64,000 nucleotides of DNA from Callorhinchus milii (lineage: Eukaryota), in NCBI RefSeq assembly GCF_018977255.1, contig NW_024704757.1:10664001-10728000 (forward strand), given 5' to 3'. Below, piece after piece: positions 40,301 through 55,300 of this stretch (position 1 is the stretch's first letter; the number at the start of each line of letters is the position of its first letter). The position numbers were made by a program.

Positions 40301-43300
40301 ATTCAATGTTTAACAACCATCTGTTATTTTGCCAACTTAATTCATTACATTTCAATTTGTTTTCATTTTCTGAAACTTTTAAAATATTCCTTTGTTTTAA
40401 CAGCTTATATAAATATATGTTGTTGTGGTTGCTCTACCTACATTTTACATTTTCTAAAGTGTTTTCCCCTTTTCACATGATCCATTATAGTATTTGTAGA
40501 TGTTATTTTCCAGTCAGCTAGATTGAATCAGGATGTAGCCACATTCACATTTCCCATTCATTGATTATTTTTCATTCATTTTTTTGTTAAACTCGACCTC
40601 ACCCATACTGTCCCCATATCCCTATTCTCCGCCTCAAAGAAGATGTGCCTGATACTAGAGATCATTCCAGAAATTCTAGGCCACCGTCGTGTGATAGTAC
40701 TTGTACATTGGATATCTTTGCAATCCAGAACACAATTTCTGCGTTGCATTATTGATTTATTCACATTGCTCCCTCAAGCACACCATACAATATAATAATA
40801 ATCCCTGCATTTGATTTAGCACCTATTCACGTCATTGAGACCTCTCAAAATATTGGTGAAACAAAGTGGCGTTCCATTACAATGCATGTAGAGTAGCACA
40901 TATACATTGGCAAAGTGAAGATAACTAGGAAACCGAGCTTATCTGCACTTTCATATCAAATATAGTTTTGCTGCTTCACAGCTAGGTGTTCAGTTTCTTG
41001 TAACATATTATTTTTAATAATTTAGGTAAACATTTCCCTTTTTTTCTTTCTTTGTTTTCTTTTTTTCCCAATAGTTGTCTGTTCCACTCCTGAAAATGCC
41101 ATCAGTCTATTCTTGCCAGAGACAGGATTGCTCAAAGTGGTCCACGCTGTTTCCAGGGAAGTCACCTGTTCATGTATCATTCAAGCGTAACAATGTTCCT
41201 GTAGTTGTTGGAATGCTGGTTAGAAGGAAAATGGAAACGTCTCGGCATTACTTTAATTATGAATCATAGAACATTCATAACACAAGAGTTGATTTGACTT
41301 ATGTCTGTGCTGATGCTGGCTCCTCTATTGCAATTCTCTCTTCTAATCCCATTCCCCTGCTCTTACCCTATTTCTTTGAATATTAATTCCCTTCATCTTT
41401 TTATCCAATTCCCTTTTAAGTGCTTCTACGGATTTGGTTTCCAATAGTTCTACTCTAATGGTTCATTTCTCTCCATAACTTGAACTAAAGAGAACACTTT
41501 GATTTTCAACAGATAAGTATTTTATAGTCCATTATTAAAACACACATTGCAAATACTTAGCAAAAAACTACAATGCCATATTTTAAGTGAGTTAAACCTA
41601 TATTTCTCCCTCATTTCCTCTCTCTCTTTGCTATGTCTCTGTTTTATGTCACTCCTCAGTCTGTTCTTAGCTCTACTATTCTACAATGTAGATGCTAGGG
41701 GGTGCACAAGAGCAAGCATATGCAACTTATCCATATACATTTCCTCCTTTCCTGTGGGACACTTGTACCTCTCCGTGTACCATTTCTCCCAACCATTGCA
41801 TTGTGGCAAGGCGTAGAAGCAAACCTGCATTGTAGCACCAGTCACACTTAAGTGTATCTCACTTCAAGGCATATCATATCCTTGTGAATGTCAACCATTT
41901 GTCTGCTACTCTTATTCAGGCTTGGTGGTGTATTGACTGTGTGTCTTGGGTTCGACATTAAAATAATAAAACATTTCACCTACATTTAAAAGAGAAATTC
42001 TACAACTATAGATTATTCAGAACAAGAAGAACTTGCATTTTTAAGCTCTTCTGAACCTTCTCCAATTCAAACTGTTCATAATATTCCAAATATGGGCTCT
42101 CATAATTCTCATAAAAATAAGGTATTTTGTCTCTTCAGATGCTCTAAAGATGTAGCTTAATATTTGATCTTTGTTTTGTACCAACTGTATGTTGACTGGA
42201 AATCATATCCAAATTCTTCTCCGTCTCTGCCTCATTGCGCACACATCTTTGTTCAATTCTGCTTCAAGGCTCATTATTTTATACTGGGAAACACCTTACC
42301 ATTTTACCAACTCTGCTCCAATGATGTCATGAACTTGATACTGGATCCCTAGTTTTACTGTGCAGGTTATTTTCCGAAGCTCTAAATCCGATTGTAAAAC
42401 TTCCTTATACTTGGATTTCCGTATCATATTGAGAACAGCTTTACGGCCTGAAATTAAAAAAATAACAAAAATCTTTATAAGAAACACATCAGTGATTAAA
42501 ATTCTCGAAAAGAGAAAACATTTGAAATAACTCAATCCCAATTTCAAGAAGGAGTAGGTCATCGAGTCAGCCACAACATTTCTTCTGCAAGTCAATATGT
42601 AAATGCAATAACCTGAATCCTTTAGGTTTGCCAGGAACTTATCCAGTTCCATTTTGAAACCCTTTACAGATTCTTGTTCCACATGTCTACAAGGCCATTC
42701 ACGGCCTTGCTCCCTCCTACCTCTCCAACCTACTATCCCCCTACCTACCTGCCCGTACCCTCCGTTCCTCTGGCTCCGGTCTGCTCCACGTCCCCCGCCC
42801 CAACCGCCCTACCATCGGTGGTCGGGCCTTCAGCCTCTCAGCCCCCAGGCTCTGGAACTCCATCCCCCAGTGCCTTCGCCTTGCTTCCTCCCTTTCCTCC
42901 TTCAAGGCCGGTCTCAAAACCTTTCTCTTTGACCGTGCCTTCAGCTCCCCTCTCGACTCTCTTCCTCCTCCTCGCTCCCTCCCTTCCCTCCCCTCACCCT
43001 GACCATTTCCCCCCTGCTCGGGTCATGACCCAACTGTGCAGCGCCTTGGGACGTCCTCCTGACGTGAAAGGCGCTCTATAAATGGAATCTTGTTGTTGTT
43101 GTTGTTGTTGTTGTCTCATTCTTTTTACTAAAAAAAACAATGTTTTGCCACACAGCAATGGGAAACTGTCATTTTTTTTCTTTCCAACCCAGGCCAATTG
43201 TAGCTCCACCCATAGTCCCAATGGTGGGACGAAGGGGAGGGGAGAGTATAGCAGATTGGAGTTTGCCAACAATAACAACTTACATTTATACAGCGCTTGA

Positions 43301-52300: not shown

Positions 52301-55300
52301 GAATTCAACACTCAGTTGTTCGTGCTATGAGAATGCATGGACCGGTGGGAATTTATTTTGTTTTTTCTCATTTCCTTATATAGAACGAGCGGAATTGCTG
52401 GAAGCCAGCCGTCTGCCTGAACTTCTGCGACGCTTTCCTGTCCTTTGTGAAGAAGGTGGTAACACAGGATGATCACCGGTACAGTTCTAATCCATTTCCT
52501 TCGCTTTATCTTCGTGTTCTGCTAAAAGGCCATTTCAGATAAAATATTGCATTTTTATGCATTACAATGAAGCTCTGATGCCTTGGAGAGTGTATCCATT
52601 TAGTAGCCGAACTCTGCAGAACAGGATGTTCTTATGGGACAGAATACAGTTTGGGACAGGATGGTGGAAGGCGAACTAGATGGACCTTGGTCTTCTTTCA
52701 CCTATCGAATTCTTATGTTCTTAGGATCTGTGCTGAGCTAGTGGATCTCAGCTAGGGCAGCAGGTGGAGCTAAAATTGGCACCAGAGAGTATCCAGGAAA
52801 GGTCTCAAAGGGAGACCAGAGCTCGGTGAATATATAAACCTCAGTATTTCTGGTTTTAGTTTGATTTCCAATAATTGGGAGTCATTTAATTATATGAGCG
52901 TAGAGTTCATTGTCAGTTAGTTGAGCAATTTGTTGGCATGTTAGTTGGCTGAATACTAGATAATTTACAGTCCTCCTCTTACTCATCAGGCAGACTCTGC
53001 TATCACTGTGTTGGGTTTGCCATGATATAAATACATAGGCCTGGAAACAACAGTTCATCAGGCTGCTCCCAAAGTAAACATTCCTAGACTAATATCTCAG
53101 ATCCTTCAATCAGCTATCTCATTACCTCTTGCATTTGCTGATGGAATCTGCCTCCACCTCCCTATTGTAACTTAAAACACACGTGTAGGCCTTGTTTAAC
53201 ACTCCTCCGATCAGTAGCACAGATCTTGAGCTAATCTCTTCTGTAACCTTTCTTGACAGGTTGGTGCATCTTTTTTCCTGGCAACCCGGAAAAGATATTT
53301 CGTATACAGTACATATGGACTCTGTGTATTCCTTCCTCCCAGACTGGTATGTGGAAAAGTTACTGTACGGAGAGGTGATTAATCCATAGTGAATAAGAAG
53401 CACTTCCATCATCCGAATAAGTACGCAATGGGGCTGGGACAGGAGACTGTCTGTAAACTAACTGTTTTATAATCTGTAAAAAGTCGTGAGTTAAATTCCA
53501 TTCAAAAGTTTCATAATAAAACGTTTTATAACATACATAGTCTGGGTCTTCCCGCCTATAAAATACTCCGTTTTGTTGCTGTTTTACTGTGCAAATGTCA
53601 CAGTCAATCGCATTGTTTAAGAAGCGAGCAGTAAAATTATATGAATGCTGACTGCCTAGCCTGTTATTTGTTGTTATGACCATCCACCCAGTCAGGGCTT
53701 TAGCTCACAGGGTTGAGGTATTTCTGTGCCTCTCAAATTGGCCAAACAGGCTGCTTAGCTGCCAACATTGCCTTGGATCACTGCCAGCAACATGCCACCC
53801 ATTAACCTCTGAAGGAGAATTTTTTTTATACCTTAAGATCATTCTTCTATCAGGCATTATTCTTCAGTGCACACTTCAAAAGGGCTGAATGTACAGAATG
53901 CCATTATGTGTAAATCTCAATTTTTTAAAAATAAAGCAGTTTCTAACAGTTTTCTGCTGGACGCGACATGTTTGGGCTACAGCTTCATGGCTGGTAGCCA
54001 CACTCCAGCACCTGACCATAGCCATTCCTTACAGTGTAAGAAGAGTATCACATCTGATCCAGATCCTATGCTCACTCAATATAATAACTTGCATTTGATA
54101 TAGCTCCTTATCGTGTCTTCGAGACGTCTCAAGCGCTTCACAGAATATGCTGTAAAGTGAATTGACTGTGTATTTTGTGGGTGAATTGCAGAAGCCAATT
54201 GCACACAGTAGTGTCGTGTTTTGCCCACAAAATATACAGTCAATTCACTTTACAGTATATTCTGTGAAGCACTTTGAGACGTCTCAATGATGTTTTAAGG
54301 TGCTGTATGAAACGCAAGGATTATTATTTAGCTGGTCATTCTAAACATAAACTAGCTTTGTTTATTAATCCTCAATTTATGCACCTTGTGATCAGTAGAA
54401 ATTTCTCTATTTACCTTATCAAAATTATTCACGTTTTTGAAGCTTTACTGAGTAAACAATCATCCCACCCAGAGTTACAGGCTGTCCACCTAGAATCCCC
54501 ACTCCGTTTCATACAGACTGATTTTTGTGATCTGACATTTCTCTACATTACAAACCTGGCAGTTAACGCCCAACACCTCACTGGAAAGAAAGTTGTACAG
54601 ATGTTTTCTAAACGTTACTTTAGCAAAGCGGTGGCCAGATAAGAGTTCTCCAACCTTTTGCATAGTCTACGATAATCCCATGATTTTGAAGGTGGCACCT
54701 ACAATCCTCTCGTAGACTAGAAACATAAGAGCTGCCGTGAGAACCGTCTGAAGTAACTTGGCTTCCAGACCCTTGTAGAGACCCAGCAAACCATGTCTCC
54801 TGTTAGTAAGAAAAGCCTGTTAAGATTTTTGAACAATTTACTGAAGATACGTAGCTGCTTTTAAACTATCGGTAGTTTAATGGTTATAGATTTTATTCAC
54901 GTTCACCTGGCAATGTATATCAATAAACGGGGGAGAGAGAGAGAGACCAAGTGGGGGAGTGGGCTTGCTCTGGGTGAGTGACATTTGGCAAAAAAGAGCA
55001 GTTAAATTTACTCTTGTGGATAGCCTCAATGATCCCAATATCTGAGCCAAACTGCTTTGCAGTTCTCTGGGGGGACTGCTGATATTGACCAGGCTGACTG
55101 GTGGCTCATTGATAGGACTCAGCAATATAAATATCATGCTGGGGGACTGGATTCTTCCCACTGAGCTGCTGATAAAGCTGTAACCCAACTCTTGATGGAT
55201 AGAGTGGTCCCAACTGACCAGCAGCAGGAAGCTCACCTGGTTCAATTCCAGTTGTACCAGCACACTCTTAGGGGTGTTTAAAAACCTGGTTCAGACAGCC

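What the first reader, a model, noticed from the sequence alone, without database searches (positions are those of the whole stretch)
41170..53389. Head-to-head STK19-DXO pair outside any MHC class III context
Seen: STK19 and DXO are divergent from one CpG island, flanked by RHOT2, SLX4 and AMDHD2 on one side and an SLC25A17-family gene on the other. No C4, SKIV2L, NELFE or CFB exons are in the window. Known: in human the same divergent pair sits in the MHC class III block NELFE-SKIV2L-DXO-STK19-C4 (6p21.3), whereas AMDHD2, SLX4 and RHOT2 map to 16p13.3 and SLC25A17 to 22q13. Inference: the pair is an ancient promoter-locked unit linking cap quality control and transcription-coupled repair. 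It moved as a cassette, either into the MHC in a later lineage or out of it here, which bears on how the class III and RCCX region was assembled.
Basis: partly seen in the sequence, partly recalled or inferred. Interest (0 to 1): 0.65.

Follow-up and report, generated by a model that had tools for sequence, protein, structure and literature searches.

The report
Elephant shark STK19–DXO divergent gene pair
Two housekeeping genes, STK19 and DXO, sit head-to-head on one CpG-rich promoter region in the elephant shark genome, next to different neighbours from the immune-region genes that flank them in humans; the arrangement is real, but it is already annotated and has been reported in print.

Summary
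The window is Callorhinchus milii (elephant shark, a chimaera), not human. The minus strand at 41170-45227 encodes the whole 262-aa NCBI STK19. The plus strand at 47738-53389 encodes DXO. The two ATGs face each other 2,510 bp apart across the strongest CpG island of the window. RHOT (paralogue 1 or 2 not resolved), SLX4 and AMDHD2 lie on one side. A complete SLC25A17/PMP34 gene lies tail-to-tail with DXO on the other. No sign of C4, SKIV2L, NELFE or CFB was found, and no assembly gap sits at the borders.

The head-to-head pair is shared by chimaera and human, so it is ancient. "Outside the MHC" holds only for these 64 kb of a contig apparently 16.8 Mb long. The direction of any move could not be tested, because no vertebrate genome collection was on hand.

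A 2019 review (PMC6769589) already states that DXO-STK19 lies on a separate segment from NELFE-SKIV2L in shark, zebrafish and coelacanth, and that all four genes are joined in frogs. The most likely reading is therefore an ordinary housekeeping bidirectional-promoter pair in its pre-tetrapod position. Novelty and interest are low. Only the named neighbours appear to be unpublished.

The parts
41170..45227 (-). STK19 coding region. Six coding exons at 45227-45114, 44545-44399, 44171-43935, 43440-43342, 42445-42302 and 41214-41173, with the TGA stop at 41172-41170. Boundaries are within 2 nt at split codons.
   Evidence: 100% identical to NCBI C. milii STK19 P0001. 261 of 262 residues map exactly, with AG/GT-type flanks. 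tblastn; Pfam Stk19; human STK19 PDB chains.
44701..46300 (.). CpG-island-like stretch between the two genes. It overlaps STK19 exon 1. The dense core is 45400-46099 (83 CpG).
   Evidence: GC 0.569, o/e 0.86, 111 CpG, against a window-wide o/e of 0.432.
45590..45731 (.). Cluster of GCGC(A/C)(T/C)GCGC palindrome-like motifs. The resemblance to NRF1 sites is recalled, not tested. Nearby are an ETS-like CGGAAGT at 45351, ATGGCG cores at 46202 and 46305, and a CCAAT at 46234.
   Evidence: TGCGCCTGCGC occurs 3 times in the window, all here. Expected by chance 0.01; 0 of 100 shuffles reach 3. The regex scan gives 5 positions. Sequence read.
47700..47737 (+). Polypyrimidine tract with a CAG splice acceptor about 30 nt upstream of the DXO ATG. 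This implies at least one upstream non-coding DXO exon, probably in the CpG island.
   Evidence: Sequence printed. Human DXO also has a non-coding first exon (PMC6769589 passage). No transcript data were available.
47738..53389 (+). DXO coding region. Exons at 47738-48196, 49447-49671, 50159-50380, 51144-51278, about 52369-52497 and about 53225-53386, with the stop at 53387-53389.
   Evidence: Pfam RAI1 on five exons, collinear. C. milii DXO isoform X2 P0014 maps exactly for 377 of 378 residues. The last two exons were found with elasmobranch and lungfish DXO. Mammalian DXO structures match at E 1.4e-28, with the GEVDC and ELKTS stretches kept.
54667..62318 (-). SLC25A17 (PMP34), complete coding region in nine exons, tail-to-tail with DXO. 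The two stop codons are 1,277 bp apart.
   Evidence: NCBI 'peroxisomal membrane protein PMP34 [Callorhinchus milii]' P0133. 305 of 305 residues map exactly. Weak Pfam Mito_carr hit on one exon.
25375..37468 (-). RHOT (Miro) gene. The ATG is near 37468, 3,701 bp downstream of the STK19 stop on the same strand. The 3' exons below 25375 were not mapped. Paralogue 1 versus 2 is unresolved.
   Evidence: ORFs read. EF_assoc_2 E 1.2e-18. Human Miro1 versus Miro2 chains score 38.3 versus 34.7 bits and 77.7 versus 78.1 bits.
38942..40249 (+). LINE reverse-transcriptase fragment with SINE-like debris. It fills most of the spacer between the STK19 3' end and the RHOT 5' end.
   Evidence: Pfam RVT_1 E 1.9e-13. 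Related repeat copies at 39917-39994 and 42794-42871, and at 42883-43014 and 44766-44897.
4771..19179 (+). SLX4.
   Evidence: ORFs read. Pfam Slx4 E 3.3e-17 on the last exon. BTB E 0.0012, below the cut-off.
410..919 (-). AMDHD2 internal exon. The gene runs off the left end of the window.
   Evidence: Human AMDHD2 7nut, E 8.9e-25. Pfam found nothing on this ORF.

Best explanation
This is the intact locus of STK19 and DXO in Callorhinchus milii, with no sign of a second copy. STK19 is also named winged-helix repair factor 1. DXO is the decapping and 5'-3' exoribonuclease of the RAI1 family.

The two genes are transcribed away from each other from one CpG island, as housekeeping bidirectional pairs usually are. 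STK19 probably starts just upstream of its ATG at 45227. DXO probably starts inside the island with a short non-coding exon that is spliced to the ATG exon at 47738.

The shared promoter is the simplest reason why the pair has stayed together from chimaera to human: a break between the genes would disable at least one of them. No functional coupling of the two proteins is needed.

The pair lies between RHOT and SLC25A17. It does not lie between C4 and SKIV2L as in mammals. This most likely reflects the state before tetrapods, with the pair brought next to NELFE-SKIV2L and C4 later, on the line to tetrapods.

Shown: gene identities, intactness, strands, distances, the CpG island and the neighbours. 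Inferred: transcription start sites, promoter sharing and the direction of the move.
For: Identity and intactness:
- STK19: 261 of 262 residues match exactly.
- DXO: five exons collinear on Pfam RAI1. 377 of 378 residues of the NCBI isoform match exactly. The last two exons were found with relatives. The nuclease stretches align with mammalian DXO structures.

Divergent layout and island.

Acceptor just before the DXO ATG parallels the non-coding first exon of human DXO (PMC6769589).

Motif cluster: 3 exact copies against 0.01 expected.

Neighbours.

No class III domain in the 30 ORFs tested: 29 had no hit and 1 was a reverse transcriptase.

No gap at the borders: the only N is at 28290.

Same 'longest contig' length, taken to mean the same contig:
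- STK19 and DXO: 4 of 4 species that have both values (C. milii, Mobula birostris, Hemitrygon akajei, Hemiscyllium ocellatum).
- PMP34 with STK19 or DXO: 3 of 3 species (C. milii, Cetorhinus maximus, H. ocellatum).

Literature:
- PMC6769589 section 13 (read whole): the pair is head-to-head and on a different segment from NELFE-SKIV2L in shark, zebrafish and coelacanth; the four genes are joined in frogs.
- PMC12619710 (one passage): lists DXO with C4 among class III genes of caecilians.
- PMC1309616 (passages): zebrafish class III genes are dispersed, with dom3z and stk19-like not listed beside skiv2l.
Against: No transcript or CAGE data were available, so the start sites and the sharing of the promoter are inferred.

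The ATG-to-ATG gap is 2,510 bp. The dense CpG core ends about 1.6 kb before the DXO ATG. A separate DXO promoter is therefore not excluded.

The authors of PMC6769589 stress that scaffolds were short and data limited.

PMC10751288 (passages) says that most human MHC genes lie on a single chromosome in elasmobranchs. Its main text names neither gene. The pair could therefore still be loosely linked to the MHC.

The old zebrafish map placed dom3z and stk19-like on different pieces, which the authors themselves distrust.

One teleost lead (a fused Tetraodon model) shows DXO beside a Rac1-like gene, not RHOT or SLC25A17.
Confidence: 0.75

Rival explanations
1. The four-gene block NELFE-SKIV2L-DXO-STK19 next to C4 is ancestral for jawed vertebrates. 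On this view the pair was moved out of it in the chimaera or cartilaginous-fish lineage, and independently in ray-finned fishes.
For: Nothing in the window excludes it. PMC10751288 (passages) argues that elasmobranchs keep most human MHC genes on one chromosome in a likely primordial but differently ordered arrangement, so rearrangement within that chromosome is common.
Against: It needs separate losses of the quartet in shark, zebrafish and coelacanth, the three groups in which PMC6769589 reports the two pairs on separate segments. PMP34 shares the contig with STK19 or DXO in 3 of 3 cartilaginous fishes with data, so the present neighbourhood is not private to the chimaera.
Confidence: 0.15
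2. The pair is outside the class III cluster only at short range. It lies on the same chromosome as the chimaera MHC, megabases away, so 'outside any MHC context' overstates the case.
For: The window is 64 kb of a contig listed as 16,789,714 bp. PMC10751288 says most human MHC genes map to one chromosome in elasmobranchs, and that the C. milii assembly was too fragmented for firm conclusions.
Against: No MHC or class III gene is in the window. The neighbours are genes that I recall as mapping to human 16p13.3 and 22q13, which are not MHC-paralogous regions. That mapping was not checked by any search.
Confidence: 0.25
3. The neighbourhood is an assembly artefact, with a false join at one or both borders of the pair. 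Alternatively, the window holds one of two copies.
For: The borders are rich in interspersed repeats: a LINE reverse-transcriptase fragment at 38942-40249 and SINE-like copies. Such regions are where false joins tend to occur.
Against: There is no run of N at 37.5-41.2 kb or 53.4-54.7 kb; the only N is at 28290. Both flanking genes are complete or properly ordered up to the borders. PMP34 shares a contig length with STK19 or DXO in two sharks as well. Only one C. milii STK19 cluster appears among 12 hits, and one C. milii DXO cluster among the 120 listed of 225.
Confidence: 0.04

Closest known systems
Human and mouse DOM3Z-RP1 (DXO-STK19) head-to-head pair in MHC class III (Yang et al. 1998 as cited in PMC6769589; passages read)
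   Same: The two genes are orthologous and lie on opposite strands with facing 5' ends. The 5' region is CpG-rich. DXO has six coding exons with, apparently, a non-coding first exon. STK19 is about 254-262 aa, the short form that PMC7298618 (passages) shows to be the real human protein.
   Different: In human the 5' ends overlap (STK19 exon 1 lies in DXO intron 2) and DXO spans 2.2 kb. Here the ATGs are 2.5 kb apart and DXO spans 5.7 kb. The human neighbours are SKIV2L (59 bp tail-to-tail with DXO) and C4 (611 bp downstream of STK19). Here they are SLC25A17 (1,277 bp) and RHOT (3,701 bp).
DXO-STK19 pair of 'shark, zebrafish and coelacanth' on a segment separate from NELFE-SKIV2L (PMC6769589 section 13, read whole)
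   Same: This is the same statement as the finding: a head-to-head pair with shared 5' regulatory sequence that is not joined to the other class III pair.
   Different: The review names neither the species of 'shark' nor the flanking genes, and it warns about short scaffolds. The window adds the neighbours RHOT, SLX4, AMDHD2 and SLC25A17, and exact coordinates.
NELFE-SKIV2L bidirectional pair (176-bp bidirectional promoter; Lee and Song 2000 as cited in PMC6769589)
   Same: A housekeeping head-to-head pair kept together across vertebrates by a shared CpG-rich promoter.
   Different: The genes are different and are not present in this window. Promoter activity was measured for that pair but has not been measured for this one.
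Dispersed class III genes of teleosts (PMC1309616, passages; PMC8423624, passages)
   Same: Orthologues of class III genes are found away from class I/II genes and from each other.
   Different: In teleosts this is attributed to loss of linkage after the teleost genome duplication. A chimaera has no such duplication.

Membership tests
DXO-STK19 (DOM3Z-RP1) divergent gene pair | A DXO orthologue with the RAI1 PD-(D/E)XK nuclease domain | tested here: met
   Five exons are collinear on Pfam PF08652. NCBI C. milii DXO maps exactly. Mammalian DXO structures match at E 1.4e-28.
DXO-STK19 (DOM3Z-RP1) divergent gene pair | An STK19 orthologue | tested here: met
   100% identical to NCBI C. milii STK19. 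Human STK19 PDB chains match at E 5.2e-12. Single-exon Pfam Stk19 hits fall below the cut-off.
DXO-STK19 (DOM3Z-RP1) divergent gene pair | Opposite strands with 5' ends facing and no gene between | tested here: met
   ATGs at 45227(-) and 47738(+). The one long ORF between them (45372-45803) has no Pfam hit.
DXO-STK19 (DOM3Z-RP1) divergent gene pair | CpG-rich shared 5' region | tested here: met
   Island-like stretch at 44701-46300 with o/e 0.86. The core holds 83 CpG in 700 bp.
DXO-STK19 (DOM3Z-RP1) divergent gene pair | Overlapping or closely spaced transcription starts; promoter active in both directions | not testable with these tools
   No transcript, CAGE or reporter data. There is only a splice acceptor before the DXO ATG.
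MHC class III NELFE-SKIV2L-DXO-STK19 quartet / RCCX context | SKIV2L tail-to-tail with DXO | tested here: not met
   The gene tail-to-tail with DXO is SLC25A17/PMP34, with 305 of 305 residues mapped.
MHC class III NELFE-SKIV2L-DXO-STK19 quartet / RCCX context | C4 immediately downstream of STK19 | tested here: not met
   Downstream lie a LINE fragment and then RHOT. No A2M or complement domain appeared in the ORFs tested.
MHC class III NELFE-SKIV2L-DXO-STK19 quartet / RCCX context | NELFE and CFB within the block | tested here: not met
   The gene map fills the window. Of the 30 ORFs tested, 29 had no hit and 1 was RVT_1. These were only 30 of 253 unassigned ORFs of 60 aa or more, and short exons would be missed.
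MHC class III NELFE-SKIV2L-DXO-STK19 quartet / RCCX context | Linkage to MHC class I/II on the same chromosome | not testable with these tools
   No vertebrate genome collection was on hand, and the window covers 64 kb only.
Vertebrate CpG-island bidirectional promoter | Start sites on opposite strands less than about 1 kb apart (criterion recalled) | not testable with these tools
   Start sites are unknown. The ATG-to-ATG distance is 2,510 bp.
Vertebrate CpG-island bidirectional promoter | Typical motif content (NRF1-, GABP/ETS-, YY1- and NF-Y-type sites; names recalled) | tested here: inconclusive
   TGCGCCTGCGC occurs 3 times against 0.01 expected. Single ETS-like, ATGGCG and CCAAT matches have no statistics. 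No binding data.

The most novel reading that the evidence does not exclude
The ancestral home of the STK19-DXO cassette in jawed vertebrates was not the proto-MHC. It was a neighbourhood of genes that now lie on human 16p13.3 and 22q13 (RHOT2, SLX4, AMDHD2, SLC25A17; map positions recalled). The roughly 6-12 kb promoter-locked cassette was inserted between SKIV2L and C4 only on the stem of tetrapods. This created the quartet and, much later, supplied the STK19 end of the RCCX duplication unit. If so, part of class III was assembled by capture of an unrelated housekeeping cassette, not inherited from the proto-MHC.
Probability: 0.4. Interest if true: 0.4.

Novelty: already known. Interest (0 to 1): 0.2.

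Why it matters
The order in which the gene-dense class III region was put together is still debated. STK19 forms one end of the RCCX module, whose duplications underlie C4 copy-number variation and CYP21A2 disease alleles. Knowing that the STK19-DXO pair travels as a unit, and that it has non-MHC neighbours in a chimaera, gives one dated data point for that history.

It is a small point. The pair and its separation from NELFE-SKIV2L in 'shark' are already in a 2019 review. The genes are already annotated by NCBI in this species. The direction of the move still has to be settled with other genomes.

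Tried and rejected
1. Six-frame Pfam scan of the intergenic stretches. The tool rejects translations with stop codons. I did not try another code or tool. I sent stop-free ORFs instead: 30 of the 253 unassigned ORFs of 60 aa or more listed. The negative result is therefore partial.

2. RHOT1 versus RHOT2. Two C-terminal GTPase exons score the same against human Miro1 and Miro2 chains. 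The protein atlas returned only generic Ras-family clusters at 0.90 or below. This stays unresolved, and the name RHOT2 rests on its neighbours.

3. A Tetraodon UniRef model (P0013, 1553 aa) carrying RAI1 plus Roc/Ras domains looked like a DXO-RHOT fusion that would prove the same neighbourhood in a teleost. The GTPase parts are in fact Rac1-like (378.6 bits to RAC1, 367.4 to RAC3, 360.1 to RAC2). The lead was dropped.

4. Literature on the neighbours. No synteny paper joins stk19 or dxo with rhot2, slx4, slc25a17 or amdhd2: 5 papers held 3 of the 6 terms and all were unrelated gene lists. Further searches added nothing. The main texts of PMC10751288, PMC8423624, PMC10210626, PMC8813856, PMC12863176 and PMC11850509 do not name DXO or STK19. 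Their figures and supplements, which I could not see, may.

5. Rfam found no RNA gene in 41-54 kb; the 3 tRNA-type hits are all in SLX4 introns.

6. One search failed on a search term that was too short and was re-sent with other terms.

7. Not done: joining exons into a spliced model for a search or a fold. All searches were made exon by exon.

Full report
**What the window is.** The exon ORF 43932-44228(-) is 100% identical to the NCBI protein 'serine/threonine-protein kinase 19 [Callorhinchus milii]'. NCBI C. milii DXO and PMP34 also map to the window without a mismatch. The window is therefore elephant shark, a chimaera. I do not take it for human. It holds one N, at 28290, which I left alone. 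Exon maps come from laying existing database proteins back onto the window.

**The pair.** STK19 occupies six minus-strand coding exons from 45227 down to 41173, with its TGA at 41172-41170. Of the 262 residues of the NCBI protein, 261 match exactly, and the missing one is a split codon. Two exons hit Pfam Stk19, below the whole-protein cut-off as expected for single exons (25 and 17.2 bits against 27). Three of the ten ORFs sent in that call had no hit. Exon 5 matches five human STK19 chains in the PDB (best E 5.2e-12), among them chains of entries 9bz0, 9fd2 and 9er2.

DXO occupies plus-strand exons from 47738 to 53389. Five exon ORFs hit Pfam RAI1 in order across profile positions 1-302. 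Of the 378 residues of NCBI isoform X2, 377 match exactly. The last two exons were found with ray, shark and lungfish DXO. Exon 3 aligns to mammalian DXO structures at E 1.4e-28, with the GEVDC and ELKTS stretches kept. The finding's coordinates, 41170 and 53389, are exactly the two stop codons.

**One CpG island.** The two ATGs face away from each other with 2,510 bp between them. The stretch 44701-46300 passes island criteria (GC 0.569, o/e 0.86, 111 CpG). The window as a whole has GC 0.443 and o/e 0.432, and this stretch has the highest o/e of six such stretches. The dense core is 45400-46099, with 83 CpG. No second CpG-rich patch lies near the DXO ATG. Instead a pyrimidine tract and a CAG acceptor sit about 30 nt before the ATG. 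This implies a non-coding upstream exon, as in human DXO (PMC6769589, passage).

The core carries a cluster of GCGC(A/C)(T/C)GCGC motifs. TGCGCCTGCGC occurs three times in the window, all within 45590-45730, against 0.01 expected. I recall this as NRF1-like, but that was not tested. Single ETS-like, ATGGCG and CCAAT matches nearby have no statistics.

**Neighbours.**
- Downstream of STK19 on the same strand, after 3.7 kb of LINE and SINE debris (RVT_1 E 1.9e-13; repeats), lies a Miro/RHOT gene. Evidence: EF_assoc_2 E 1.2e-18 and Miro chains in the PDB. Human Miro1 and Miro2 score alike (38.3 versus 34.7 bits and 77.7 versus 78.1 bits), so 'RHOT2' is not established by sequence.
- Further left are SLX4(+) (Pfam Slx4 E 3.3e-17) and an AMDHD2 exon (human AMDHD2 7nut, E 8.9e-25).
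- In one search, six of the ten exon ORFs sent had no Pfam hit, including the AMDHD2 exon.
- To the right, a complete nine-exon SLC25A17/PMP34 gene lies tail-to-tail with DXO, the stop codons 1,277 bp apart. All 305 residues of the NCBI protein map exactly.
- The human map positions of these genes (16p13.3 and 22q13) are recalled and were not checked.

**No class III neighbours in the window.** The mapped genes fill the window. Of 253 unassigned ORFs of 60 aa or more I tested 30: the 25 of 100 aa or more between genes, plus five shorter ones. Of these, 29 had no Pfam hit and one was the reverse transcriptase. Short exons would escape this test. However, genes the size of C4 or SKIV2L cannot fit in the remaining space.

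**Contiguity.** There is no N run at either border. All three C. milii proteins are listed on a contig of 16,789,714 bp. The same equality of contig length holds for STK19 and DXO in 4 of 4 species with both values. It holds for PMP34 with STK19 or DXO in 3 of 3 species. Equal length is taken to mean the same contig, and it shows at most the same chromosome.

**How it most likely works.** This is an ordinary housekeeping bidirectional promoter. An unmethylated CpG island drives STK19 leftwards and DXO rightwards, and the entangled promoter keeps the two genes together through rearrangements. That the pair is head-to-head in human and mouse, with overlapping 5' ends, is stated in PMC6769589. 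Start sites and promoter sharing in the chimaera are inferred, not shown. A functional tie between cap surveillance and transcription-coupled repair is not needed and not supported by anything here. The repair role of STK19 comes from the abstract of bioRxiv 10.1101/2024.07.22.604575 (seen in the listing) and from the NCBI name 'winged helix repair factor 1-like'.

**Comparison with what is known.** PMC6769589 section 13 (read whole) already says three things:
- Each pair is head-to-head and shares 5' regulatory sequence.
- All four genes are linked in frogs.

The authors caution that scaffolds were short. Other papers add the following:
- PMC12619710 (one passage) lists DXO with C4 among caecilian class III genes.
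- PMC1309616 (passages) shows dispersed class III genes in zebrafish.
- PMC10751288 (passages) maps most human MHC genes to one chromosome in elasmobranchs, calls the C. milii assembly highly fragmented, and does not name DXO or STK19 in its main text.

I found no paper naming RHOT2, SLX4, AMDHD2 or SLC25A17 as neighbours of the pair. Figures and supplements could not be seen and may bear on this.

**What stayed unchecked.**
- Synteny in any other vertebrate.
- The position of C4, SKIV2L, NELFE, CFB and class I/II genes in this assembly.
- A genome-wide search for a second copy.
- Long-read or Hi-C support for the borders.

No vertebrate genome collection was available.

**Verdict.** The pair is ancient and probably promoter-locked. 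Its non-class-III neighbourhood in a chimaera, together with the published survey, favours a later entry into class III on the tetrapod line (my estimate about 0.55-0.6). This was not tested here. The finding is already known in substance, so interest is low.

Noticed in passing
window 2501-4700, with AMDHD2 exon 410-919(-) and SLX4 ATG near 4771(+): AMDHD2 and SLX4 are also head-to-head across CpG-rich, low-complexity sequence: island-like stretches at 2501-3900 and 4101-4700, with proline/glycine-rich repeat ORFs that have no Pfam hit. This looks like a second bidirectional pair in the same window.
   Followed up: partly
window 36233-37430: A minisatellite of about 1.2 kb with a 27-bp unit, G-rich on the plus strand, lies in the first RHOT intron directly after the ATG exon. 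GC skew over 36-38 kb is 0.45.
   Followed up: partly
window 16196-16267(+), 7744-7806(-), 18415-18486(+): Three Rfam tRNA hits lie inside SLX4 introns (64.6, 40.9 and 33.1 bits). The first is full-length and strong and may be a real tRNA gene. The other two may be heads of tRNA-derived SINEs.
   Followed up: no
window 19601-20600: A CpG-rich stretch (GC 0.595, o/e 0.75) lies between the 3' ends of SLX4 and RHOT. It holds long ORFs on both strands, none with a Pfam hit. Its nature is unexplained.
   Followed up: partly
window 51279-51368: NCBI's C. milii DXO isoform X2 (P0014) reads through the donor after exon 4 and ends in the intron at 51368. It therefore lacks the last two coding exons found at about 52369-52497 and 53225-53386.
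   Followed up: partly
protein P0013 (UniRef H3DKU9, Tetraodon nigroviridis), not in the window: This fused 1553-aa gene model holds five stretches matching DXO exon 2 and two Rac1-like GTPase copies. It suggests tandem DXO duplicates or an assembly problem beside a Rac1-like gene in that pufferfish.
   Followed up: partly
window 42794-43102, 44766-44897, 39917-39994, 55857-55949; also 47253-47323, 49287-49357, 49883-49953, 54228-54298: Two families of interspersed SINE-like repeats are scattered through the STK19 and DXO introns and both borders. One family shares its tail with the LINE fragment at 38942-40249.
   Followed up: no
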